Source: a virus
Taxonomy: Duplodnaviria; Heunggongvirae; Uroviricota; Caudoviricetes
Length of the DNA stretch: 64,000 nt
Reading direction: 5' to 3' (one strand)
Virus record (IMG/VR): IMGVR_UViG_3300020451_002055
Shown here: positions 4,330-61,323 of the stretch, piece after piece
Layout: each line of letters opens with the position of its first letter
How positions within the stretch are numbered: the stretch's first letter is position 1
Position numbers and translations under genes: made by a program
The notes under the pieces: generated by a model
The model's input: only the letters and a program-made list of their open reading frames with translations
What the model was told of the DNA's origin: nothing
Databases searched by the model: none

Positions 4330-4953
4330 TTGGAACTCAAGCAGAGAATCCAAAGGAAACTGACCGTGCCTTGGCGATACTGGAAACCGGAACTCAACTG
4401 CGATAAGACCTTGCAAGAGGTTCTTGATACCATGCCTAGGGATCCTGCGAACAAGATTCCTTGGCAGGTCAAGATGTTTGAGAATCCCGGCAGTCCTCTC
4501 GCCATTCCGGGTGCGATCGATCTCTTCGGGCACGACTGCCTTCATGCCCTTCTCTGCACTTCGTTCTATACGCAATGCGAAGCTTGGACCATCGGCTTTA
4601 CGATGGGAACCTGCGACGGACTGAAAGACTGGCACATCAATCTCCTCAAGCTCTGGTCTCGCTCCTATCCGGGCGAATACCGTCTTGGAGGAGATGACCT
4701 TCATCACCTTGATGAGGGCATTGCATTCGGCAGGCGAGCAGCGCGTCATGAGTCTCGTTGCCGCAACATCAATCAGTTCAATTTCCGCGATCCAAAAATC
4801 CTCGCTATGAAGATGAGCGATCTGCGAGAGATGTTCGGTCTCGACTGGATTGATGAAGATCACGAGTATCAGGATTGGGCGTTGAAGCGATGGTCGGACA
4901 AACCGCTGATGAGCAGATGTCCGTATGAAGACGGCGTTCTTGAAAAGGCGTAA
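4330..4953 (+). CDS. Coq4-like metal-binding protein
   Basis: HDCLH-x11-E matches the Coq4 HDxxH-x11-E motif. Confidence 0.6.
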   Translation: MELKQRIQRKLTVPWRYWKPELNCDKTLQEVLDTMPRDPANKIPWQVKMFENPGSPLAIPGAIDLFGHDCLHALLCTSFYTQCEAWTIGFTMGTCDGLKDWHINLLKLWSRSYPGEYRLGGDDLHHLDEGIAFGRRAARHESRCRNINQFNFRDPKILAMKMSDLREMFGLDWIDEDHEYQDWALKRWSDKPLMSRCPYEDGVLEKA

Positions 4954-6377: not shown

Positions 6378-6875
6378 GGAGCAGTAGGGCGGTAGCTTAA
6401 TTGGATAAAGCAACGGTCTTCTAAACCGTCGAGTGCGGGTTCGAGTCCCGCCCGCCCTGTTCAGTAGATTAGAAGGAGTTATTCTAATCTGTCCGTATTC
6501 ATAGTCAGGAGGTCTGACTATGGATACCAAGCATTGCCCGAAGTGTGATACCGAAAAGAGTCTCGAAGAGTTCTACAAGAAAGGAGCAGATCGCTACCAG
6601 CCTTATTGCAAGTCTTGTTTCAACCAATATTGCCAAGATCGATGGAGAAGGCGAAAGGTTGAAGCAATCAAAGCAAAGGGAGGCAGGTGTAGTAAATGCG
6701 GATACGATAAAAACTACGCTGCTCTTGAGTTCCATCACCGAGACGATGAAGATAAAGAGATGGATTGGAGCAAGGCGAGATTAGCTTCGGAAAAGAGGAT
6801 GCTTGCGGAGCTTGACAAATGCGACTTGGTTTGTCGTAACTGTCATGCAGAACTTCATAACCCTCAAGGTATGAA
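6378..6875 (+). mobile_element. Inserted cassette (replacement tRNA-Arg plus HNH endonuclease) inside a tRNA-Arg gene
   Basis: Lies exactly between the two complementary halves of a tRNA-Arg(TCT). Confidence 0.7.
6386..6459 (+). tRNA. tRNA-Arg(TCT)
   Basis: AGGGCGG/CCGCCCT acceptor, ACGGT-CTTCTAA-ACCGT arm, GGTTCGAGTCC. Confidence 0.92.
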
Positions 6876-6882
6876 CTTCTAA
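6520..6882 (+). CDS. HNH homing endonuclease
   Basis: CPKC..CKSC Zn finger, CSKCG..ALEFHH..KCDLVCRNCH; AGGAGG RBS. Confidence 0.92.
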   Translation: MDTKHCPKCDTEKSLEEFYKKGADRYQPYCKSCFNQYCQDRWRRRKVEAIKAKGGRCSKCGYDKNYAALEFHHRDDEDKEMDWSKARLASEKRMLAELDKCDLVCRNCHAELHNPQGMNF

Positions 6883-6917
6883 ACCGTAGGTTGTGGGTTC
6901 GAGTCCCACCCGGAGCG
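6876..6917 (+). pseudogene. 3' half of interrupted tRNA-Arg(TCT)
   Basis: CTTCTAA loop, ACCGT, T arm GTGGG-TTCGAGT-CCCAC, CCGGAGC-G. Confidence 0.85.
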
Positions 6918-9402: not shown

Positions 9403-10518
9403 ATGCGTCTAATCGCCGCCATTGTCTTTCTCATCAGTTTCATCTCTCCCGCGATTGCGCAGGAAGAGGAAGTTCAGGACAGGAGAGCCGTCAAGGTCGC
9501 TGTCTATGAATCCGACCCGTTTGTTTCAAGGGCAGACGATGACTCGCTGACCGGATACGACATCGCTCTGATCGAGCAGATCGCATTCATCAATCAATGG
9601 AACATTTCCTATGTTCAGGTTGATAGGTTCAGCGACTTGCTTGAGAGAGTCGAAGACGAAGAAGTTGACATCGCCATCTCAAGCATCACGATCACGCCCG
9701 AAAGGGAACGATCGGTCGATTTCTCTCAACCCTATATGCATACGGGTCTTGGTATCCTTGTCTCCGAAGACAGAAGCACGACGATGAGCGAAGCAATCGG
9801 CTCATGGATTTCTACCAGAGTTCCTTTGGCGGTTGATTTGCTGACGATCTGCTTCTTCTTCATCATTGCTCTGATGTTTTGGGGCATCGTTCTTTACCTG
9901 ACTGATGAACAGCGGAAAGCTGATGCGGCTGATGAAGACGGACTGACTTTCATGGAAGTGGTTCGAGGTAGCGCGGATTCGATGTGGCTTGCCTTTACAA
10001 CCGGATCGACAATCGGCTACGGCGAAGTTTACCCGAGAAAGACCGCGGCTCGAATCACCGCTGTCTTCTGCTTCTTTACGGTTGCGATTCTCGTTAGCTC
10101 GCTGACCGCAACGATCACCTCATTCAACGTTGTTCAGCAGATCAACGTCGGCATCCAAGGCGCGGGCGATCTCAAGGGCAAGACTGTCGCAACGGTCGGA
10201 GGAACGACCAGCGTTTCTTCTGCCGCGAGGTACGGAGCCAACGTCGAGACATACGACAACATTGACCAGGCAATCGCTGCTGTCATTCTCGGGAATGCTG
10301 ACGCTGTTGTCTACGACGAGCCTCGACTGCGGTACTTCGCCAACAACCAAGGCAGGAACAAGGTCCGCTTGGTTGATACGGTCTTCGAGTCGCAGGACTA
10401 CGGCATTGCGTTCGTTCAAGGCAGCAATCTGCGGGAATCCGCCAACGTCGCCCTTCTTTCCATGCAAGACAAGGGCGAGTTGTCGGAGTTCGAGCATAGT
10501 TATTTCGGAGCGCCATGA
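9403..10518 (+). CDS. GluR0-like ligand-gated K+ channel (split solute-binding domain plus 2TM pore)
   Basis: Signal peptide, S1 lobe (PF..GYDI..ITITPER..VDFSQPY), TM-pore TIGYG-TM, S2 lobe (GTTS..VYDEP..YGIAF). Confidence 0.9.
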   Translation: MRLIAAIVFLISFISPAIAQEEEVQDRRAVKVAVYESDPFVSRADDDSLTGYDIALIEQIAFINQWNISYVQVDRFSDLLERVEDEEVDIAISSITITPERERSVDFSQPYMHTGLGILVSEDRSTTMSEAIGSWISTRVPLAVDLLTICFFFIIALMFWGIVLYLTDEQRKADAADEDGLTFMEVVRGSADSMWLAFTTGSTIGYGEVYPRKTAARITAVFCFFTVAILVSSLTATITSFNVVQQINVGIQGAGDLKGKTVATVGGTTSVSSAARYGANVETYDNIDQAIAAVILGNADAVVYDEPRLRYFANNQGRNKVRLVDTVFESQDYGIAFVQGSNLRESANVALLSMQDKGELSEFEHSYFGAP

Positions 10519-10573
10519 ACAGGTGACGCTCTAGAGGCATACAATCAATAGGCACCATTTCAAAGGAACCACC

Positions 10574-12061
10574 ATGGCTACCCCATTCAGGACCAGAATC
10601 CCTCGACTGACAGACTCATACAAGGTTTCCCATGCGGCTCAGTATCCAGACGGAACCTCCAAGGTATACAGCTACTTTGAGTCCCGAGGAGGCAAGTTCC
10701 CTGTTACTGGTCTTTTTGGCCTCCAATACATCCTCATGGCTTACCTCGAAGGCGAGGTAGCTACGCAGCGAGACATCAACCGAGATCAGCACTTTTTCGC
10801 TGCCCACTTCTTCGGGAATGGAGCCCTTCACAACAAGGCAGGTTGGCAGCGCATCGTCGATGTTCATGGCGGGCGACTGCCTGTCCGCATCATGGCGGCT
10901 CCCGAGGGAACGATCGCCCCGAACAGCAACGTCCTCTTCACCATCGAAAACCTCGATCCTCAACTCTACTGGTTGACCAATTACATCGAGTCGATCCTCC
11001 TGCATGCATGGTCGGCTTCTACCGTCATGACCGGCAGCCGCAACAGCAAGCAGATTCTCTTCAACGCTCTTGAGCGGTCTGGCGATCCTTCGGGCCTCCC
11101 GTTCAAGCTGCATGATTTTGGCTTCCGCGGCGTTTCGAGCGTCGAGACCGCTGCAACCGCTGGAGCGGCCCATCTTGTCAACTTCATGGGAACGGACACG
11201 CTCATCGCCTGCGATCTCATTGCTCAATACTATTCGGGTAAGCGACCCGAAGAAGTTGAAGCGATGAGCGATGACGAGTACGGTCGTTTCATCGCAGAGA
11301 ACATGGCCGGGCACTCCATTCCGGCGTCCGAGCATTCGACCATCACGACATGGGGCGAGGATGGGGAGATCGATGCATTCCGCAACATGCTCAAAGTCTA
11401 CCCGAGCGGTCTTGTTGCATGCGTCTCGGACTCTTGGGATATCGATCGAGCATGCAGCGAGCTTTGGCCCTCGCTCAAGGGCGAAATTGAAGCACGCGAC
11501 GGTCTTCTCGTTGTCCGTCCTGACTCTGGCGAGCCCACCGATGTTGTTCCTCGCATCCTTGGTCATCTCGCCGAGGGATTCGGATACACGACCAACAGCA
11601 AGGGCTTCAAGGTTCTGCATGATCAGGTCCGCGTCATTCAAGGCGACGGCATCGACTTCGACAGCATCTCGACCATCCTCGATGCGGTCATGGATGCAGG
11701 TTTTTCTGCCGACAACATTGCCTTCGGATCTGGCGGCGGACTGCTGCAGAAGGTCAACCGCGATACGCAGCGGGTTGCCATCAAGTGCAGCCATGCGATC
11801 ATCAATGGCGAAGAAACGGATGTTTTCAAGCGTCCGAAGACTGACCCGACAAAGGACAGCAAGCGAGGAAGGCTCGCTCTCGTTCAGACTCATGACGGCC
11901 TCGCTACGGTTCAGGAATCGGATGCCGACAATTACGCTGGCGGCAACCAGTTGATCGAGGTCTTCAACAACGGCGAGGTTTGCAACCTGCAGTCGTTCTC
12001 TGACATTCGTCGTCGGGCGGAACTTCCTGAGGTTGCTGAACTGTCTGCCGCTACTGCCTAA
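10574..12061 (+). CDS. nadV: nicotinamide phosphoribosyltransferase
   Basis: TDSYKVSH, LHDFGFRG, PASEHS, VSDSWD, VRPDSG, IQGDG, FGSGGGLLQ motifs. Confidence 0.96.
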   Translation: MATPFRTRIPRLTDSYKVSHAAQYPDGTSKVYSYFESRGGKFPVTGLFGLQYILMAYLEGEVATQRDINRDQHFFAAHFFGNGALHNKAGWQRIVDVHGGRLPVRIMAAPEGTIAPNSNVLFTIENLDPQLYWLTNYIESILLHAWSASTVMTGSRNSKQILFNALERSGDPSGLPFKLHDFGFRGVSSVETAATAGAAHLVNFMGTDTLIACDLIAQYYSGKRPEEVEAMSDDEYGRFIAENMAGHSIPASEHSTITTWGEDGEIDAFRNMLKVYPSGLVACVSDSWDIDRACSELWPSLKGEIEARDGLLVVRPDSGEPTDVVPRILGHLAEGFGYTTNSKGFKVLHDQVRVIQGDGIDFDSISTILDAVMDAGFSADNIAFGSGGGLLQKVNRDTQRVAIKCSHAIINGEETDVFKRPKTDPTKDSKRGRLALVQTHDGLATVQESDADNYAGGNQLIEVFNNGEVCNLQSFSDIRRRAELPEVAELSAATA

Positions 12062-12083
12062 TCAACCTGACGGAGGCTCGCTG

Positions 12084-12818
12084 ATGGATAATGTCTTTCT
12101 CAAGAGCGTTCAGTCGTTCATTACTCGCTTCCCTGAAGGCAGGACTCCTTGCTCGTTCTTTGTGACAGGCGGAGGATTCAGTCTGCTCGACATCGGAAAG
12201 GTGCCGGGAGCAAGTAAGGTTTTGGCTGATGCGTACATTGCGTACCATATGCTCGAAGAGATTGCTGTCCTCAATACCGTTGTTGCGGATCATACCGACA
12301 AACTGACCAACGGAGACATCGGCTTCGTTTCTCCATGGACTACTTACTGGTATGCCCGAGCTATGATGGCTCGGCATGCTGCGACTATTCCTGATGCTAC
12401 GATTTGCGTTGTCAATGCGAGCCTGACAACTAATCGGTGGCGTCGAGGAAAGAATGAAGCTTTCTTTGCTGTTGTCAACAGACCAGTGGACAGCAAAGAC
12501 GGCGAAGTTCGCATGTTCAGACTCGATATGGATAAGCTTGAGGAGGACGAATACGCCCGAATCGAGCATCAACATCAAATCGCTTTGTCGGGTCTTTCAG
12601 ATCCGAGCCAAGCCCCTTTGCATCCGATCACACAACGCCGCGCCTTTGAAGATGAGAAGGTTGCTCAGGTTGCTATGGGACTTCTTCTTGAAGACCCAAC
12701 GCTCGTCCGCTTGATCGAGCATAGCGAAGCTGTCTATCCAATCGAGATTGAAGGCGATCCCACAAACCCCGAAAGCTTCGTCCCTCAGTTGGACGCGCCA
12801 TGGACAGCAAGGCCCTGA
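12084..12818 (+). CDS. CinA/PncC-fold-like protein
   Basis: VTGGG..VPGAS..Y..VS..A.AM..SL...RRG pattern like the N-terminal domain of CinA-like/cytidylyltransferase fusion proteins. Confidence 0.55.
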   Translation: MDNVFLKSVQSFITRFPEGRTPCSFFVTGGGFSLLDIGKVPGASKVLADAYIAYHMLEEIAVLNTVVADHTDKLTNGDIGFVSPWTTYWYARAMMARHAATIPDATICVVNASLTTNRWRRGKNEAFFAVVNRPVDSKDGEVRMFRLDMDKLEEDEYARIEHQHQIALSGLSDPSQAPLHPITQRRAFEDEKVAQVAMGLLLEDPTLVRLIEHSEAVYPIEIEGDPTNPESFVPQLDAPWTARP

Positions 12819-12819
12819 T

Positions 12820-13464
12820 ATGCCCAAGATGACGCTCGAACAAGCCCATGCTCGCGTTCAGCGAGACTCCCTCTTTGCCTTCGTCTACGACGACGGCTTT
12901 GCTCAGCCGGTCTACGACCTTGAGGCCCCCTGGGTCGAGCGAGAGGTTCATTTGCTGCCCGGCAGCTTCAATCCGATCCATCGAGCCCATGAAGCGATGT
13001 TCGAGCAGATGCGAAGGAACGGCATCTACGCAGCCTACGAGATCAGCATGGAGCGGATCGACAAGGAGTTCCTGACCTACGAAGAACTGCAGGCACGACT
13101 TGTTCAGTTCAACGGTAAGGGTCCGGTCCTTGTTGACCGCTGGCCCTACTTCATGCAGAAAGCGGGTATCCTCCGCAACTGGAACCTGACTTTCCATGTC
13201 GGCGTTGATACTGCCATCCGGCTTGTCGAGTCTCATGGGATTGCCGGAATCCAAGGAATTGCGGCTGATTTCGTCGTCTACGACCGCATTTGGGAAAACA
13301 GACGGCAAGGCCTCGGAAGCTGCATGGTCTTCGCCAACCGGACTCCCTCGAACTTTCGACCCGGCAATACGCCTGATGAGACTCTTCTCGGGTTGTCTTC
13401 TACTGCTATCCGGGCGGGTCATCAGACCCCGGACGGCAGAGCAATCGCCTCAGCGACCAACTGA
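12820..13464 (+). CDS. NMN adenylyltransferase-like (cytidylyltransferase superfamily)
   Basis: LPGSFNPIHRAH (HxGH-like), F..KA, VGVDT, LSSTAIR. Confidence 0.85.
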   Translation: MPKMTLEQAHARVQRDSLFAFVYDDGFAQPVYDLEAPWVEREVHLLPGSFNPIHRAHEAMFEQMRRNGIYAAYEISMERIDKEFLTYEELQARLVQFNGKGPVLVDRWPYFMQKAGILRNWNLTFHVGVDTAIRLVESHGIAGIQGIAADFVVYDRIWENRRQGLGSCMVFANRTPSNFRPGNTPDETLLGLSSTAIRAGHQTPDGRAIASATN

Positions 13465-15078: not shown

Positions 15079-15138
15079 TGGGCTGAAGAGTCAAGGTTAA
15101 CTTGGTAATGTTGCACCCTTGCCTCACTAACTTGCCCA
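15079..15138 (+). ncRNA. Y RNA-like #2 (minimal hairpin type)
   Basis: TGGGC(T)GA/TTGCCCA; GAGTCAAGG/CCTTGCCTC; GGTTAAC motif. Confidence 0.8.
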
Positions 15139-15146
15139 GACAATCA

Positions 15147-15227
15147 AAGATCGGACTGAAGAATAGAAGGTTAACTTCAATTTTGATTTGAAACCCAACA
15201 CCCTTCATTCACTCCTTGTCCGTTCTT
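15147..15227 (+). ncRNA. Y RNA-like #3 (minimal hairpin type)
   Basis: CGGAC(T)GA/TTGTCCG; GAATAGAAGG/CCTTCATTC; GGTTAAC motif. Confidence 0.8.
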
Positions 15228-15230
15228 GTT

Positions 15231-15359
15231 AGCGACGTAGCTCAATTGGTAGAGCGCCTAAAAGGTCTTCAACCAACGCCTTACCCGGCACGGGTTGATG
15301 GAATTGAAGGTTATCGCATGTGGAGCGGGAGGTTGCAGGTTCGAGTCCTGTCGTCGCGA
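15231..15359 (+). ncRNA. Y RNA-like #4: tRNA scaffold with Ro module in the anticodon arm
   Basis: Acceptor GCGACG/CGTCGC, D arm GCTC-AATTGGTA-GAGC, T arm GCAGG-TTCGAGT-CCTGT; insert TTACCCG-GCA-CGGGT(T)GA, CTTCAA/TTGAAG, GGTTATC. Confidence 0.85.
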
Positions 15360-15377
15360 TTGAAAAACTGAATACAA

Positions 15378-15502
15378 CGCAACGTAGTTTAACGGCAAAA
15401 CACCTAAACATCGTTGTCCGCCCCTTACCCGATTCGGGTTGATGGAATTGACGGTTATCCTCTATCAAAGGGGTGATCCAGGTTCGAATCCTGGCGTTGC
15501 GT
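15378..15502 (+). ncRNA. Y RNA-like #5: tRNA scaffold with Ro module in the anticodon arm
   Basis: Acceptor CGCAACG/CGTTGCG, D arm GTTT/AAAC, T arm CCAGG-TTCGAAT-CCTGG; insert TTACCCG-ATT-CGGGT(T)GA, GGTTATC. Confidence 0.85.
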
Positions 15503-15523
15503 TTGAAAACTGAATAGACTTTT

Positions 15524-15626
15524 ACGGGTTGAATGCAATCGTTTATCGTTGGTTCAAGTCCAATCGCCGTTCTGCGGCGTAGCCCCAACTCAGGCGAGGG
15601 GCATTCGAGAGCAGTACCTTACCCGT
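15524..15626 (+). ncRNA. yrlA: Y RNA-like #6: canonical YrlA topology
   Basis: Ends form ACGGGT(T)GA/TTACCCGT; order is T arm (TTGG-TTCAAGT-CCAA), loop-closed acceptor stem CGCCG/CGGCG, then D arm GCCCC/GGGGC. Confidence 0.85.
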
Positions 15627-15630
15627 TTTT

Positions 15631-15761
15631 CGTGCAGTAGCTCAACAGGTAGAGCGGCAGTCAAAAAGGTCCATGACCGATTTGCTTGCTCGTTTCGAGT
15701 TGAAGGTTGATGGTTATCTATCGCAAAACTGCTTGTGGAGGTTCGAGTCCTTCCTGCACGA
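15631..15761 (+). ncRNA. Y RNA-like #7: tRNA scaffold with Ro module in the anticodon arm
   Basis: Acceptor CGTGCAG/CTGCACG, D arm GCTC/GAGC, anticodon-stem GCAGT/ACTGC, T arm GGAGG-TTCGAGT-CCTTC; insert TTGCTCG-TTT-CGAGT(T)GA, GGTTATC. Confidence 0.85.
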
Positions 15762-15764
15762 CTT

Positions 15765-15836
15765 CGCGGAGTGGAGAAGTAGTAACTCGCTTGGCTCATA
15801 ACCAAGAGATCGGTGGTGCAAATCCATCCTCCGCTA
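15765..15836 (+). tRNA. tRNA-Met(CAT), initiator-like
   Basis: C1 mismatch in CGCGGAG/CTCCGCT, CTTGG-CTCATAA-CCAAG; atypical T loop TGCAAAT. Confidence 0.85.
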
Positions 15837-15848
15837 TTTTGAACATTG

Positions 15849-16108
15849 CAGGCGATTCTGCGATCGCCGGTTAGGGTAAGATGCACGCAGCAGAAGGTTC
15901 CTAGGGATACCGAAGTGCGTCCGGCGGCAAAGAGAACGCAGAACTCTACCGTCGAGACGAGGACACATCTGCTAGAGAGCCAGGTGGGGAATCTGGTTGT
16001 AATGTTCAGAAGCATGACGAGCCGCTTGCGAGACGCAAGGGTTTCTGCAGAGATCGGACCGATCCTAGGCAAATCCTAGGGGTAGGCCCCAAACAGGAGT
16101 ATCGCCTG
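15849..16108 (+). ncRNA. orphan large structured RNA (~260 nt)
   Basis: Closing helix CAGGCGAT/ATCGCCTG; inner helices GATGCAC/GTGCGTC, AGCCAGGT/ATCTGGTT, TTGCG/CGCAA, CCTAGG/CCTAGG. Confidence 0.55.
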
Positions 16109-16181
16109 TTCTCGTCATTTCAACATACCCGGTTGACCTCTACCTGAAAGGGATACGTCAATAATGGCCGGGTTTACATTT

Positions 16182-16731: not shown

Positions 16732-17244
16732 ATGCTGCTCGACAGTCTTAGGCCAACTCAATGCGGTCTTCGATACGTTGATCAGATTGCAAGCATGGTC
16801 GAGTTTGTCCGATCAGGCGGTGTCTTCTCGCAAGAAGCTCTGCTGAGGTTTGCGGAGGCAAACAATCATGAGCCGGACAACCTCATTCAGGTTCGTCGGT
16901 TTGAGGATGGGACTCACTTTATCCATGACGGGCACCATAGATGCCTTTCGATCTGGCTTGCCGGACGAGAGAACCTTGATGCCCAAGAATTTGATTTGTC
17001 TATCTGGCATTACCACCAGTATGGAGAGATCAACTTTGATGCGGGTTATGTGACACCACATGACCCGAGAGAAGAAACCCGATACGCCGACTTCTTTGGA
17101 TTCAAGTCGGAAGCTCGGAAGATTGCAGAAACTTCGGTCGAAGAAGCGATCGAGTTCATCAGAGGAAACAGGTCTCGTTACTGCGAGCCGCGGACCTGTT
17201 GGCATGTAAGAGATTTGGCCGCAACCTTGCCTCTAAGAGGCTGA
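16732..17244 (+). CDS. ParB/sulfiredoxin-like domain protein
   Basis: LRPTQ...I.V.....FIHDGHHR motif. Confidence 0.75.
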   Translation: MLLDSLRPTQCGLRYVDQIASMVEFVRSGGVFSQEALLRFAEANNHEPDNLIQVRRFEDGTHFIHDGHHRCLSIWLAGRENLDAQEFDLSIWHYHQYGEINFDAGYVTPHDPREETRYADFFGFKSEARKIAETSVEEAIEFIRGNRSRYCEPRTCWHVRDLAATLPLRG

Positions 17245-17262: not shown

Positions 17263-18933
17263 ATGGCATACACGAAGCACTTCAGCGCAAAGAAGACCCC
17301 GCAGAACGTCCCGACTCCGGGGAAGAACCAGAAGAAGAACAACGCGGGCGGTTACGTCTATGAGATCACTCCTTGGGATCGCTTGCAGCGATTCCTGATC
17401 CTAGGCTCCGAGGGCGGCTCGTACTACGTCGGCGAGCGTAAGCTCACCGTCGATAACGCGAACTGCGTAATCGATTGCCTCAAGGAGGACGGTCGTCGCG
17501 TCGTGGACATGATCGTGGAGATTTCGGATGCGGGTCGCGCCGCTAAGAACACTCCGGCTCTGTTCGCGCTGGCTCTCGCTGCATCGGCGGATGAGCTTGA
17601 GACCCGCAAGTACGCGCTCGCAAACCTCTCGAAGGTTGCGCGTATCGGTACTCACCTCTTCGAGTTCGCGCAGTTCGTCAACCAGTTCCGTGGTTGGGGT
17701 CGTAACCTCAAGGAGTCGATCGCTAACTGGTACCTTGACATGGACGCAGAGCGTCTGGCCTACCAGGTCGTCAAGTACCCGCAGCGCACGACCGAGGAGG
17801 GCGACAGCCTGTCGGTATGGTCGCACCGCGACCTGCTCCGTAAGGTCCGCCCGAGCAACGTCAAGGGAGATCACAACAAGATCTTCGGCTATGTAACTCA
17901 GGGATGGGACACCATCCCGAGCCGTAGCCCGAAGGCTTTGCAGATCATCCGCGGAACCGAGAAGATCAAGCGAGCAAAGAGCGCAGATGAGGCCGCAGGT
18001 CTCATCGAGGAGTTCTCGTTGCCGCACGAGGTTGTTCCGAAGGAGTTCTCGGGAGATCCGAAGGTTCTCACCGCCCTCCTGCAGAGCATGCCGTTGACTG
18101 CGACGATGCGTAACCTTGGTCGCTTGACCGCGCGAGGCGTTCTTGTCCCGATGGGCAAGGAGACCTCGATGGTTATCGATCGCCTGACGGATGAGGACTA
18201 CATCCGCAAGAGCAGGATCCACCCGATCAACGTTCTTGCGGCTCTGAAGACCTACTCGCAGGGCTCAGGTCACCGCGGAAGCATGTCTTGGCAGCCGATT
18301 CAGCCGATCGTCGATGCTCTCGACTCGATGCTCTACAAGAGCTTCGGGAACATCGAGCCGACCGGCAAGAAGATTCTCATTGCCCTCGATGTTTCGGCGT
18401 CGATGGACTGGGACGGCTGCTCGGGCTTGAGCCAGATTACTCCGCGCGAGGCTTCGGCTGTCATGTCCATGGCAACCGCTCGCGTTGAGAAGAACTACCA
18501 CATCGTCGCTTTCTCAAGCGGCGGTTGGTCGAGAGGCTCGGGCCGTAGTCGCTACGGTTGGGGCTCGGGTATCCAGGATGTGGCGATCTCGCCTCGTCAG
18601 CGTTTGGACTCGGTAGTTAGCACCGTTTCTAGCCTGCCAGCAGGCGGAACCGACTGCGCTTTGCCGATGCTCTACGCTACCGAGAAGGGAATGGACATCG
18701 ACGCATTCGTTGTCTACACGGACAACGATACCTGGGCAGGAGACATCCACGCGGATCAGGCACTCAGAGAGTACCGCCGAAAGTTCAACCCGGAGGCGAA
18801 GCTCATTGTTGCCGGAACCGCATCGACCGAGTTCTCGATCGCTGACCCGAGCGATCCGGGCATGCTCGATGTTGTCGGATTCGACTCGTCGGCTCCGAGC
18901 GTCATCTCCTCGTTCATTCGAGGCATGGACTAA
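17263..18933 (+). CDS. rsr: Ro60 / TROVE-vWA RNA-binding protein
   Basis: NNAGGY, RFLILGSEGGSYY, RGWGR, WSHRDLLR, MP.TA.RNL, R.HP, vWA DVSAS, GGTDCALP, VYTDNDT, GMLDVVGFD. Confidence 0.97.
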   Translation: MAYTKHFSAKKTPQNVPTPGKNQKKNNAGGYVYEITPWDRLQRFLILGSEGGSYYVGERKLTVDNANCVIDCLKEDGRRVVDMIVEISDAGRAAKNTPALFALALAASADELETRKYALANLSKVARIGTHLFEFAQFVNQFRGWGRNLKESIANWYLDMDAERLAYQVVKYPQRTTEEGDSLSVWSHRDLLRKVRPSNVKGDHNKIFGYVTQGWDTIPSRSPKALQIIRGTEKIKRAKSADEAAGLIEEFSLPHEVVPKEFSGDPKVLTALLQSMPLTATMRNLGRLTARGVLVPMGKETSMVIDRLTDEDYIRKSRIHPINVLAALKTYSQGSGHRGSMSWQPIQPIVDALDSMLYKSFGNIEPTGKKILIALDVSASMDWDGCSGLSQITPREASAVMSMATARVEKNYHIVAFSSGGWSRGSGRSRYGWGSGIQDVAISPRQRLDSVVSTVSSLPAGGTDCALPMLYATEKGMDIDAFVVYTDNDTWAGDIHADQALREYRRKFNPEAKLIVAGTASTEFSIADPSDPGMLDVVGFDSSAPSVISSFIRGMD

Positions 18934-18959: not shown

Positions 18960-18995
18960 AAAGGGGCTTCCCGTTAGGGAGGCCCCTTTTTTTTT
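18960..18995. terminator. bidirectional terminator between convergent genes
   Basis: AAAAGGGGCTTCCC/GGGAGGCCCCTTTT with T run. Confidence 0.85.
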
Positions 18996-60141: not shown

Positions 60142-61323
60142 ATGCGTATCTTTCGAAACAGCTATGATTTGGATAGCTATTTCATAGCAGACTTCTATGT
60201 TGAGTCATCTACCAATCTAAGAGACGCAGCATGGAACATTGCTATAGGGCAAAGCGTTGGGAACCCCAACGTCCGCAACAAATGGGAAACGGACGAGCTA
60301 TTCGAAAATCATTCATGCTTCATCATAGATAGCGAGGAACGGCTAGCTTCTATTCAAAGAGGCTACGTCAAGATAGCATACCCGATCAAGAACATCAACT
60401 GGAAAGAAGATGGAGTATCTCAGCTTCTATGTCACCTAATGGGAGGGCAGCTTGACATCGATATCATACGAGCATGCCACCTCGTTGATCTAACCCTTCC
60501 TGCTCATGTTGAAGAACAGTTTCCTAAGCCCAAGTACGGGATCAAGGGTATACGAGACTTTACCGGTGTTCATGGGAAACCTTTGCTCGGAGGCATTGTA
60601 AAACCGAAGACCGGACTATCTCCCGAGGCCCTGCTTGACATCGTTGCTCAGATGGTTGAAGGCGGAGTCAACTTCATCAAAGAAGACGAGATCATGGCTA
60701 ATCCGGAGTTCTGCACAATAGGGCAAAGGCTTCCGGCAATCTCAGACTATCTTCAAGGCAAGAACGTAATCTACTGCGTCTGTATCAATGGAGACTATCC
60801 GTATATCTTTGACCGCGCAAAACAAGTCGCCGACCTTGGCGGCAATGGCATACATATCAACTTCTGGTCAGGTTTTGGAACCTACAAAGCAGTCAGAGAG
60901 CTTGACCTACCCTTGTTCATGCATTTCCAAAAGAGCGGAGACAAGATACTGACCGATAGCAGTCATCGGTTCCATATCAAGTGGACGGTCATCTGCAAGC
61001 TAGCGGGCCTAGTTGGAACGGACTTCATACATGCGGGCATGTGGGGCGGCTATATGTCGGAAGACGAAGGCAGTCTAACAGATGTTCTCGATACTCTGTA
61101 TCAGTATGATGTCATGCCCGCCCTTAGCTGCGGCATGCATCCCGGCCTAGTCAGCGCCATCGAATCAAGGTTCGGAACAAAATGGATGGCGAACTGCGGA
61201 GGCAGCATACATGGTCATAGGGATGGAACGAAAGCAGGAGCCCTTGCTATGTCGCAAGCAATCTCGGGCGAGCATGGACCAGAATATGATTGGGCCGTCA
61301 AAGAATGGGGACTGATTCAGTAA
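60142..61323 (+). CDS. RuBisCO-like protein (form IV-like)
   Basis: IAIGQS.G, GGIVKPKTGL, FIKEDE, HFQKSG, DFIHAG, SCGMHPG, GG.IHGH..G..AGA.A. Confidence 0.92.
   Translation: MRIFRNSYDLDSYFIADFYVESSTNLRDAAWNIAIGQSVGNPNVRNKWETDELFENHSCFIIDSEERLASIQRGYVKIAYPIKNINWKEDGVSQLLCHLMGGQLDIDIIRACHLVDLTLPAHVEEQFPKPKYGIKGIRDFTGVHGKPLLGGIVKPKTGLSPEALLDIVAQMVEGGVNFIKEDEIMANPEFCTIGQRLPAISDYLQGKNVIYCVCINGDYPYIFDRAKQVADLGGNGIHINFWSGFGTYKAVRELDLPLFMHFQKSGDKILTDSSHRFHIKWTVICKLAGLVGTDFIHAGMWGGYMSEDEGSLTDVLDTLYQYDVMPALSCGMHPGLVSAIESRFGTKWMANCGGSIHGHRDGTKAGALAMSQAISGEHGPEYDWAVKEWGLIQ

What the first reader, a model, noticed from the sequence alone, without database searches (positions are those of the whole stretch)
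15231..15761. tRNAs whose anticodon loop is replaced by a Ro-binding module (circular permutation of YrlA)
Seen: three RNAs of 125-131 nt have normal open acceptor stems, D arms and TTCGA T arms. In place of the anticodon loop is a ~60-nt insert in which the Ro helix strands are reversed in order and closed by a 3-nt loop. The adjacent YrlA has the opposite connectivity (Ro stem open, acceptor closed), so both permutations sit side by side. Inference: these could be matured by RNase P, given CCA by the phage enzyme and perhaps aminoacylated, delivering Ro60 to EF-Tu/ribosomes or baiting anticodon nucleases. Annotators would probably call them intron-containing or pseudo-tRNAs. I do not know of this form being characterised.
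Basis: partly seen in the sequence, partly recalled or inferred. Interest (0 to 1): 0.9.

Follow-up and report, generated by a model that had tools for sequence, protein, structure and literature searches.

The report
tRNA-shaped Y RNAs beside phage Ro60
Three small RNA genes in a large phage are complete tRNA shapes that carry the docking helix for the RNA-surveillance protein Ro60 as an extra arm. This is a widespread form of "Y RNA" in phages and bacteria, and I found no description of it in the papers I could search.

Summary
T1 (15231-15359), T2 (15378-15502) and T3 (15631-15761) have open 7-bp acceptor stems, D arms and UUCGA T arms. Each also has a ~43-nt arm in which the two strands of the Y-RNA Ro60 helix stand in reversed order, closed by a 3-nt loop. 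An RNA of the opposite (YrlA) connectivity lies between T2 and T3, and Ro60 is 1.5 kb downstream.

Only T3 has the arm inside the anticodon stem. T1 and T2 carry it between the D arm and a retained anticodon-like hairpin.

The design is conserved:
- 16 copies in 9 related phage contigs, 34 more beside Ro60 in IMG/VR phages, and 67 beside rsr in 39 of 80 bacterial loci.
- About 96% of base-pair cells are paired, against about 40% in slid controls; 23-26 of 29 pairs show compensatory changes.
- The tRNA tertiary signatures are kept (15:48 is A:U or G:C in 111 of 117).

They are most likely non-decoding, tRNA-topology Y RNAs that partner Ro60. Anticodon and discriminator do not match, and A34 is frequent. 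Maturation, Ro60 binding and function are inferred, because no RNA data exist. I found no description in searchable papers. Other agents of this scan noted the same design on other DNA.

The parts
15231..15359 (+). T1, tRNA-topology Y RNA, type a. Acceptor 15231-15237 with 15352-15358 (A1.G72 mismatch), discriminator A. Ro arm 15267-15309 with loop GCA at 15288-15290. Anticodon-like hairpin 15314-15328 with loop AUGUGGA. T arm 15335-15351.
   Evidence: Sequence; R1 101 bits; RNAalifold on 7 type-a homologues; pair counts.
15378..15502 (+). T2, tRNA-topology Y RNA, type a. Perfect 7-bp acceptor, discriminator U. Ro arm 15412-15453 with loop AUU at 15432-15434. Anticodon-like hairpin 15458-15472 with loop CUAUCAA.
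   Evidence: Sequence; R1 111 bits; homologues L061:4287-4411 and L063:4863-4986.
15524..15626 (+). RNA of YrlA connectivity. Its 5' and 3' ends form the same bulged helix. It has a T arm, an acceptor-like hairpin closed by UCU and a degenerate D-like hairpin.
   Evidence: MFE fold. The homologue in L061 (about 4431-4545) has a fully different but paired closed stem. No Rfam YrlA match.
15631..15761 (+). T3, tRNA-topology Y RNA, type b. Perfect 7-bp acceptor, discriminator A. A 5-bp anticodon stem (15657-15661 with 15728-15732) encloses the Ro arm 15671-15713 (loop UUU at 15693-15695). No anticodon loop.
   Evidence: Rfam tRNA model 49.4 bits with a 65-nt insert; R1 99 bits. A related contig has UUU>AAA in the loop and UU>CC at 15700-15701, restoring GCCGA.
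15765..15836 (+). Ordinary tRNA-Met(CAU), 3 nt downstream of T3. It shows that the T RNAs sit inside a tRNA operon.
   Evidence: ARAGORN and Rfam.
15080..15222 (+). Two simple Y-RNA-like hairpins (about 15080-15137 and 15152-15222) with the same GNUGAAG ... CUUG helix and GGUUAAC motif.
   Evidence: Read from the sequence. Counterparts with GCCGAAG are in L061:4030-4180. Not tested further.
17263..18933 (+). Ro60 (Rsr) gene, the presumed protein partner. A strong terminator-like hairpin follows at 18960-18989.
   Evidence: Pfam TROVE 2e-30 and vWA_Ro60 1e-58; terminator scan.

Best explanation
T1-T3 are Y RNAs built on an unpermuted tRNA. The body is a true L-shaped tRNA fold with free 5' and 3' ends in the acceptor stem. 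The conserved bulged helix that docks Ro60 in all Y RNAs is present as a closed hairpin arm on the anticodon side.

There are two architectures:
- Type a (T1, T2): the arm is inserted at the D-stem/anticodon-stem hinge, and a shape-conserved but non-decoding anticodon hairpin is kept.
- Type b (T3): the arm sits inside the anticodon stem.

Likely working, all inferred:
1. The RNAs are transcribed with the tRNA array and with Ro60.
2. They are cut at the tRNA ends by RNase P and the 3' tRNA-processing enzymes, and receive CCA from the host enzyme.
3. Ro60 binds the arm.
4. The exposed tRNA body, with its elbow, acceptor-CCA end and (in type a) anticodon-like loop, docks a tRNA-recognising partner. 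In this way Ro60 is tethered to tRNA processing, repair or attack machinery during infection.

They are not decoding tRNAs. A tandem pair of such genes is also the structure from which a YrlA can arise, since the junction of two units reads as a YrlA.
For: Shown:
- Structure with covariation. On the unfitted alignment A5, 95.7% of cells are paired, 23 of 29 pairs are compensatory, and slid controls give 36-46%. The figures are the same on 50 phage copies (95.8%, 26 of 29).
- Independent RNAalifold predictions recover all helices.
- tRNA tertiary signature in 117 copies: U8 116, A14 116, GG in the D loop 113, T loop UUCGA or UUCAA 114, and the Levitt pair 15:48 as A:U 58 or G:C 53.
- The arm consensus is CUUGCCCG-loop-CGGGCCGA. 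Its 5' strand is the GNCGAA / GGUCCGA Ro60 contact motif of PMC4201824.
- Loops are 0-8 nt in 45 of 50 phage copies and 59 of 67 bacterial copies, and many are UUCG, GAAA or GCAA tetraloops.
- Linkage to Ro60: 37 matches of 58 bits or more in 688 kb of IMG/VR Ro60 loci (24 of 80 loci), and 39 of 80 bacterial rsr loci. There were none in 504 kb of unrelated viral contigs.
- Single copies in L067, L068 and L069, and bacterial units 100-550 nt apart, exclude a mis-parsed tandem YrlA. Within-unit acceptor pairing is 6.9 of 7.
- The trailer right after the discriminator (UU...) is the same as in the phage's own CCA-less tRNAs. An encoded CCA follows the discriminator in 5 of 50 copies, against about 0.8 expected.
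- Not decoders: the discriminator fits the anticodon-like triplet in only 4 of 20 (with textbook identity rules). A34 is present in 10 of 43.

From the literature:
- M. smegmatis YrlA is cut by RNase P and gains CCA in vivo (PMC4201824).
- YrlA is a crystallographic tRNA mimic (10.1101/312249).
- A phage Ro60 with its Y-like RNAs binds host PNPase (PMC12135203).
Against: - No transcript, end-mapping or binding data exist. No RNA run holds the stretch, so expression, ends, CCA addition and Ro60 binding are all inferred.
- In this window the helix has U in place of the conserved C (GUUGA, not GCCGA) in every Y-type element, so binding by this Ro60 is an extrapolation.
- The closing loop lies only 5 bp from the bulge, whereas in known Y RNAs that end of the helix is open. 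Whether Ro60 tolerates this is unknown.
- The Rfam tRNA model did not report T1 or T2 in the window, only T3.
- The effector docked by the tRNA body is unknown even for YrlA.
Confidence: 0.7

Rival explanations
1. They are baits for tRNA-targeting defence nucleases. The tRNA body and, in type a, the anticodon-like loop lure host anticodon or acceptor nucleases. The attached Ro60, perhaps with an exonuclease or ligase, then blocks the nuclease, reports it or repairs the damage. This is a more specific version of the main reading, not an alternative identity.
For: - The anticodon-like loops keep their shape: U33 in 25 of 31 and 32 of 43, purine 37 in 27 of 31 and 37 of 43, A38 in 28 of 31 and 28 of 43.
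- The triplet itself changes even between orthologues, for example GUG, GUA and AUG on the same stem.
- U33+R37+A38 together occur in 23 of 43 copies against 29 of 659 shuffled controls.
- Several triplets match tRNAs known as nuclease targets (Lys UUU, Tyr/His/Asn GUN, Arg). This last point is from my own knowledge.
- RNA ligase genes lie near Ro60 in L067, L068 and L069.
- A Ro60-like phage protein counters the Ppl defence system (preprint PMC11482910).
Against: - Type b copies have no anticodon loop at all, yet are equally conserved.
- Variable triplets are also expected from simple loss of decoding constraint.
- No nuclease or defence gene has been linked to these RNAs.
- The same RNAs occur beside chromosomal rsr in bacteria, where a counter-defence role is less obvious.
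Confidence: 0.2
2. They are working tRNAs, or at least chargeable ones, with an extra arm. They would be aminoacylated, bound by EF-Tu and able to bring Ro60 to ribosomes.
For: - The tRNA body is complete: 7-bp acceptor, conserved elbow, and CCA encoded in some copies.
- Type a keeps a 7-nt loop with U33 and R37.
- PMC4201824 notes that cleaved M. smegmatis YrlA 'could potentially be aminoacylated'.
Against: - The discriminator agrees with the triplet in only 4 of 20, and C73 is the commonest discriminator at 18 of 50.
- A34 triplets are frequent.
- The anticodon stem has 4 bp and is separated from the D stem by a 43-57-nt arm.
- Type b has no anticodon.
- G3:U70 occurs in 1 of 50.
Confidence: 0.08
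3. They are precursor tRNAs. The arm would be an intervening sequence that is cut out and the halves ligated, for example by phage RNA ligase or RtcB. Ro60 would act as a chaperone for this unusual splicing.
For: - In silico removal of the arm from T1 leaves a near-canonical cloverleaf with a GUG loop.
- RNA ligase genes lie near Ro60 in some relatives.
Against: - The insertion site differs between types: the hinge at 26/27 in type a, and inside the anticodon stem in type b.
- Removing the arm from T3 cannot give a U33 loop.
- There is no Rfam group I or group II intron match.
- I know of no bacterial endonuclease for such sites.
- The triplets are non-standard (A34).
- The arm is the most conserved part and carries the Ro motif, which is unlike a spacer.
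Confidence: 0.07
4. The reading is an artefact of register. The real RNAs would be ordinary YrlA units that run from the Ro 5' strand of one unit to the Ro 3' strand of the next.
For: - The Rfam YrlA model matches the T1/T2 junction.
- In actinophages Bxz1 and Cashline the reverse artefact occurs: my model matches across true YrlA units at 31-39 bits.
Against: - The Ro strands are only 3 nt apart.
- T1 has no upstream partner and T3 has no downstream partner; an ordinary tRNA-Met follows T3.
- L067, L068 and L069 hold single copies.
- Bacterial units stand 100-550 nt apart with perfect within-unit acceptors.
- The cross-unit artefacts have mismatched acceptors and 23-31-nt 'loops'.
Confidence: 0.03

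Closest known systems
YrlA (Y RNA-like A; Rfam RF02553; Chen et al. 2014, PMC4201824; structure in Wang et al. 2018, 10.1101/312249)
   Same: - It has a tRNA-like D arm, T arm and acceptor helix with the same tertiary pairs, including covarying 15:48.
- It carries the Ro60 motif GNCGAA on the strand 5' of the T arm.
- It is encoded within a few kb of Ro60 on the same strand, in both bacteria and phages.
   Different: - The connectivity is the circular permutation. In YrlA the RNA ends lie in the Ro helix and the acceptor is closed by a loop; here the acceptor is open and the Ro helix is closed.
- Type a also keeps an anticodon-like hairpin that YrlA lacks.
- The elements do not reach the Rfam YrlA threshold (23 bits against 69, and only across two units).
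[quoted passage not shown]
   Same: The end product is a Ro60-bound tRNA-like RNA with an open 7-bp acceptor stem and a 3' CCA.
   Different: In M. smegmatis this form is made by cutting a closed precursor, so it is a two-piece RNA with an open Ro helix. Here the open acceptor is encoded in the gene and the RNA would be one piece.
D. radiodurans Yrn1 and the RYPER complex; Thermus phage phiLo Ro60 with Yrl1 and Yrl2 (PMC12135203)
   Same: These are modular Y RNAs. One module binds Ro60 and the other tethers an effector (PNPase). A phage-encoded Ro60 uses its own Y-like RNAs.
   Different: In Yrn1 and the Yrl RNAs the Ro helix is formed by the RNA ends, and the tRNA likeness is partial. The effector of the T RNAs is unknown.
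Permuted tRNA-like genes: two-piece tmRNA, and the permuted tRNA genes of Cyanidioschyzon (cited in 10.1101/312249; tmRNA from my own knowledge)
   Same: They are a precedent that one tRNA-like fold can be encoded in either circular order in related lineages.
   Different: Those RNAs are processed to a decoding or ribosome-rescue RNA. They have no Ro60 module.
Intron-containing tRNAs (group I introns in bacterial anticodon loops; archaeal BHB introns)
   Same: Both are tRNA genes interrupted on the anticodon side. Gene finders with an intron option call the T RNAs in this way.
   Different: - The insert is 43-57 nt with no intron core.
- It lies at two different sites.
- It is conserved as a Ro-type helix and linked to Ro60.
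- Its removal does not restore a standard tRNA in type b.

Membership tests
Y RNA (Ro60 partner RNA) | A conserved bulged helix with the 5'-strand motif GNCGAA / GGUCCGA paired to a CUUG-type 3' strand. | tested here: met
   The consensus is CUUGCCCG ... CGGGCCGA in 117 homologues, with a nearly invariant UU/GA pair flanking a bulged base. The window copies have GUUGA, with U in place of C. A close relative has GCCGA at the same place.
Y RNA (Ro60 partner RNA) | Encoded next to Ro60. | tested here: met
   Ro60 lies 1.5 kb downstream. T RNAs occur in 24 of 80 phage and 39 of 80 bacterial Ro60 loci, and in none of 504 kb of control contigs.
Y RNA (Ro60 partner RNA) | [quoted passage not shown] | tested here: not met
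   The helix is closed by 3-nt loops here, and by 0-8-nt loops in most homologues.
Y RNA (Ro60 partner RNA) | Physically bound by Ro60. | not testable with these tools
   Needs co-immunoprecipitation or a gel-shift assay.
YrlA (RF02553) | tRNA-like D and T arms with tRNA tertiary pairs. | tested here: met
   (U8, A14, G18G19, UUCGA, covarying 15:48).
YrlA (RF02553) | Acceptor-like stem closed by a loop, with the RNA ends in the Ro stem. | tested here: not met
   The 7-bp acceptor is open, with within-unit covariation.
YrlA (RF02553) | Reaches the Rfam gathering score. | tested here: not met
   Best match is 23.4 bits against a threshold of 69, spanning the T1/T2 junction only. There were none in the related loci.
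tRNA (RF00005) | Cloverleaf with 7-bp acceptor, D arm, T arm and elbow. | tested here: met
   T3 scores 49.4 bits, and several homologues score 44-59 bits over the gathering score of 29. T1 and T2 themselves were not reported by the Rfam tRNA model.
tRNA (RF00005) | A 5-bp anticodon stem with a 7-nt loop, contiguous with the D stem. | tested here: not met
   T3 has no loop. T1 and T2 have a 4-bp stem with a 7-nt loop, separated from the D stem by the arm.
tRNA (RF00005) | Anticodon consistent with the identity elements (discriminator and others) of one amino acid. | tested here: not met
   4 of 20 agree. A34 triplets occur in 10 of 43 (the identity rules are from textbook knowledge).
tRNA (RF00005) | Aminoacylated and used in translation. 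| not testable with these tools
   Needs charging assays.
Intron-containing tRNA | An insert at a fixed anticodon-loop site with a recognisable intron core or BHB motif, whose removal gives a standard tRNA. | tested here: not met
   There are two different sites (types a and b). No intron family matched. T3 cannot regain a U33 loop. The ARAGORN introns are inconsistent.

The most novel reading that the evidence does not exclude
tRNA-topology Y RNAs are matured exactly like tRNAs (RNase P, 3' trimming, CCA). They serve as Ro60-carrying tRNA decoys whose fast-changing anticodon-like loops track the tRNA-targeting nucleases of the host. Ro60 would then be a tRNA-damage or anti-defence device in phages and bacteria. 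These RNAs would also be the ancestral form from which YrlA arose through tandem duplication.
Probability: 0.2. Interest if true: 0.9.

Novelty: new variant of a known kind. Interest (0 to 1): 0.75.

Why it matters
- **An open question for bacterial Ro60.** Bacterial and phage Ro60 have been studied for 20 years, but nobody knows what the tRNA-like half of their Y RNAs is for.
- **A missed form of Y RNA.** In many lineages the partner RNA is a whole tRNA shape with free acceptor ends rather than a capped mimic. These lineages include Chloroflexota, Armatimonadota, Myxococcota, Gemmatimonadota, Verrucomicrobiota and many large phages. The 2014 survey found few or no YrlAs in some of these groups, and it discarded matches that overlapped tandem tRNA genes (PMC4201824).
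- **Testable ideas.** It makes it possible to test whether Ro60 is coupled to tRNA maturation, charging, repair or attack.
- **Origin of YrlA.** It gives a concrete intermediate for the proposed origin of YrlA from a dimeric tRNA (10.1101/312249).
- **Annotation.** It warns annotators that 'intron' or pseudo-tRNAs beside Ro60 are a separate gene class.

Tried and rejected
- **Exact-motif scan.** I scanned IMG/VR for the window's hairpin CTTACCCG-N3-6-CGGGTTGA. The 60 hits were all chance, with no tRNA context.
- **Single-protein Ro60 scan of IMG/VR.** It found nothing. A scan with an alignment of Ro60 sequences worked.
- **Cultured phages.** No DNA relatives of the array were found, only tRNA-Met look-alikes. 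In Bxz1 and Cashline my model hits only across true YrlA units, which is an artefact.
- **Single-sequence MFE folds.** They were uninformative (z -1.3 to -2.5) and mispaired the arms.
- **Expression.** No RNA holder is listed for the stretch. The metatranscriptome of a sister sample laid nothing. This says nothing about expression.
- **The short 'joints'.** They are unrelated tRNAs from other organisms that share the D-arm and T-arm words.
- **CCA-adding enzyme.** It was not found among 30 window ORFs. The window is only part of the genome.
- **Papers I could not read.** The reviews PMC10870794 and PMC6047535 are not held. The supplementary tables of PMC4201824 are not held. I therefore cannot exclude that the form is mentioned there.
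- **CCU/GGG stem in T1 and T2.** I considered a 3-bp remnant of the anticodon stem and rejected it. It competes with the better-supported 4-bp hairpin.
Full report
**What is in the window**

The stretch lies in a + strand array of tRNA genes and small structured RNAs, from 13.9 to 16.3 kb (ARAGORN and Rfam). Next come a 170-aa ORF and a Ro60 gene at 17263-18933 (TROVE 2e-30, vWA_Ro60 1e-58), then a strong terminator-like hairpin at 18960. No whole genome is held for the window. Relatives of its Ro60 sit on contigs of 250-500 kb, some with terminal repeats. It is therefore part of a large phage.

**The three RNAs**

- T1 is 15231-15359 (129 nt), T2 is 15378-15502 (125 nt) and T3 is 15631-15761 (131 nt).
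- Each has a 7-bp acceptor stem. T2 and T3 are perfect; T1 has an A1.G72 mismatch.
- Each has U8, a 4-bp D stem with A14 and G18G19, and a 5-bp T stem with a UUCGA loop.
- None has an encoded CCA.
- Between the D arm and the T arm lies a bipartite arm: an outer helix H2 of 5-6 bp, an internal loop, then the helix CUU(A/G)C-CG / CG-GU(U)GA closed by GCA, AUU or UUU. The motif GGUUAUC follows.
- The RNA at 15524-15626 uses the same two strands in the opposite order. They form its terminal stem, and its acceptor-like stem is closed by UCU.

The Rfam tRNA model reports T3 end to end, with a 65-nt insert in the anticodon loop (49.4 bits). The Rfam YrlA model matches only 15327-15407, which is the 3' half of T1 plus the 5' half of T2 (23 bits, E 0.03). 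A circular permutation in tandem should give exactly this pattern.

**Correction to the observation**

Only T3 has the arm inside a 5-bp anticodon stem. In T1 and T2 there is no enclosing stem. The arm sits at the D/anticodon hinge and is followed by a 4-bp hairpin, which starts in the UC of GGUUAUC and carries a 7-nt loop. RNAalifold on seven type-a homologues predicts this hairpin with compensatory changes. Across homologues the split is type a 31 and type b about 17 in phages, and 43 and 11 in bacteria.

The type-a loops look like anticodon loops in shape:

| Feature | Phage copies | Bacterial copies |
|---|---|---|
| U33 | 25 of 31 | 32 of 43 |
| Purine 37 | 27 of 31 | 37 of 43 |
| A38 | 28 of 31 | 28 of 43 |

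All three features occur together in 23 of 43 bacterial copies, against 29 of 659 shuffled controls. The middle triplet is free, for example GUG, GUA and AUG on one orthologous stem.

**Conservation**

- Close Ro60 relatives (59-77% identity) were traced to their contigs. Every contig that gave DNA holds one or two such RNAs upstream of Ro60.
- A plain MAFFT alignment of 16 copies with my structure gives 95.7% paired cells, 23 of 29 pairs with changes on both sides, and 0 of 500 shuffles as high. Sliding the partners by 1-3 columns gives 36-46%.
- A covariance model built from this alignment (R1) scores the 16 at 89-117 bits, ordinary tRNAs at 50 bits or less, and nothing else in the window higher.
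- In 80 IMG/VR Ro60 loci it finds 37 further matches of 58-89 bits in 24 loci, nearly all within 1 kb of Ro60.
- In 504 kb of unrelated viral contigs it finds only five ordinary tRNAs.
- In 80 bacterial rsr loci it finds 67 matches above 57 bits in 39 loci, some on chromosomes of 2-6 Mb.
- On the 50 phage copies the counts are 95.8% paired and 26 of 29 pairs compensatory. That alignment is fitted to the model, so the slid control is the fair comparison.
- Whole-genome runs on five phage records show that most copies flank Ro60. One 498-kb phage has a second pair 58 kb away in its tRNA cluster.

**It is a real tRNA fold**

In 117 copies, U8 is present in 116, A14 in 116, and GG in the D loop in 113. 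The T loop is UUCGA or UUCAA in 114. The Levitt pair 15:48 is A:U in 58 and G:C in 53. Chen et al. used this same covariation to argue that YrlA is tRNA-like (PMC4201824).

**It carries the Ro60 site**

The arm consensus is CUUGCCCG-loop-CGGGCCGA, with UU/GA pairs flanking a bulged base. The 5' strand is the GNCGAA(N)G motif, likened to the GGUCCGA that X. laevis Ro60 contacts (PMC4201824). All Y-type elements of this window have U for that C, while all those of L061 have C. A related contig has CC at 15700-15701.

**Not a register artefact**

My model also hits actinophages Bxz1 and Cashline at 31-39 bits. Reading the DNA shows tandem standard YrlAs there: closed acceptors, Ro strands of neighbouring units 23-31 nt apart, and mismatched 'acceptors' in my register.

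The reverse artefact is excluded for the T RNAs:
- The Ro strands are 3 nt apart.
- The end units have no partners, and a tRNA-Met follows T3 after 3 nt.
- L067, L068 and L069 have single copies.
- Bacterial units lie 100-550 nt apart, with 6.9 of 7 within-unit acceptor pairs.

**Do they act as tRNAs?**

Probably not in decoding.
- The discriminator fits the triplet in only 4 of 20 type-a copies.
- C73 is the commonest discriminator (18 of 50).
- G3:U70 occurs once.
- A34 triplets make up 10 of 43.

They are probably handled as tRNAs at their ends.
- The trailer begins with UU directly after the discriminator, as in the phage's own CCA-less tRNAs.
- Five of 50 copies encode CCA at the exact position, against about 0.8 expected.
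- M. smegmatis YrlA, which has a 7-bp stem, is cut by RNase P and receives CCA in vivo (PMC4201824).

A phage CCA-adding enzyme is not needed and was not seen here. Only 1 of 5 related phage genomes has one.

**Mechanism**

What is shown is the fold, the Ro-type arm and the linkage to Ro60. The rest is inferred: maturation at tRNA ends, Ro60 on the arm, and the tRNA body docking a tRNA-recognising partner.

This follows the tether model of Y RNAs (RYPER; phage phiLo Ro60 with host PNPase, PMC12135203). It also follows the view of Ro60 with a tRNA-like partner as an RNA-repair platform in jumbo phages (PMC7824862). The shape-conserved but sequence-free anticodon loops of type a fit a bait for tRNA-targeting nucleases. 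They fit equally well a relic that is kept for folding. I give the bait idea about 0.2.

**Evolution**

Wang et al. proposed that YrlA arose from a dimeric tRNA whose outer parts formed a Ro site (10.1101/312249). A tandem pair of T RNAs is such a dimer with the Ro site already in place. T1-T2 are 18 nt apart, their acceptor strands are 6 of 7 complementary across units, and the Rfam YrlA model already reads the junction.

**Novelty**

I found no description in the searchable library. The 2014 survey discarded candidates that overlapped tandem tRNA genes and reported few YrlAs in delta-proteobacteria and cyanobacteria. Two reviews and the supplements could not be read.

Other agents of this scan independently noted the same design on other genomes. 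I did not use their notes as evidence.

I class it as a new variant of a known kind, namely Y RNAs and tRNA mimics.

Noticed in passing
window 15080-15713, compared with L061:4030-4672: Every Y-type helix in the window (two linear hairpins, T1, T2, the YrlA-type RNA and T3) has U at the position of the conserved C of GNCGA. Every counterpart in L061, whose Ro60 is 77% identical, has C. This concerted change could reflect co-evolution with Ro60 or gene conversion.
   Followed up: partly
L061:4187-4271: Another tRNA-like RNA: 7-bp acceptor, T arm, an odd D region, and an anticodon arm replaced by a long perfect palindromic hairpin. It lies just upstream of the first T RNA and has no Ro motif. 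R1 scores it at only 15 bits.
   Followed up: no
L073:9829-9954 (Streptomyces phage Jay2Jay, record 87949-88074): An unannotated 126-nt tRNA-shaped element with an insert of about 55 nt, between tRNA-Leu and tRNA-Gly and 3 kb from the phage's Ro60 gene. It holds GUCGAAAG and GAUAUC, but not in the T-type order.
   Followed up: partly
L188, L158, L164, L166, L192, L218 (bacterial rsr loci): Ro60 genes in several MAGs sit inside dense arrays of 10-25 tRNA genes, as in the phage. These may be prophages, mis-binned phage contigs or tRNA-array islands.
   Followed up: no
window 15849-16108: About 260 nt between tRNA-Met and tRNA-Asp has no ORF of note and no Rfam match at E<=10. Near 16125-16175 there is a CCGGUUGA ... 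CCGGG element that may be a further Y-like helix.
   Followed up: no
window 15757-15764 in run X3: A related 20-kb contig from a sludge metagenome has 670 extra bases between T3 and tRNA-Met, so the array gains and loses units.
   Followed up: no
window 9403-13464 and 60142-61323: The phage encodes a glutamate-receptor-like ligand-gated channel (SBP_bac_3 plus Lig_chan), NAMPT with two unknown ORFs, an HSP20, a RuBisCO-large-chain-like protein and a type IA topoisomerase.
   Followed up: partly
window 16732-17244: A 170-aa ORF directly upstream of Ro60 is conserved in that position in L061-L066 and has no Pfam family here. A precomputed 'faint' ParBc_2 hit is on record for the L064 homologue. 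It is a candidate third component of the system.
   Followed up: no
window 6784-6917: A weak R1 match (22 bits, 134 nt) overlaps predicted ORFs. It is probably noise.
   Followed up: no
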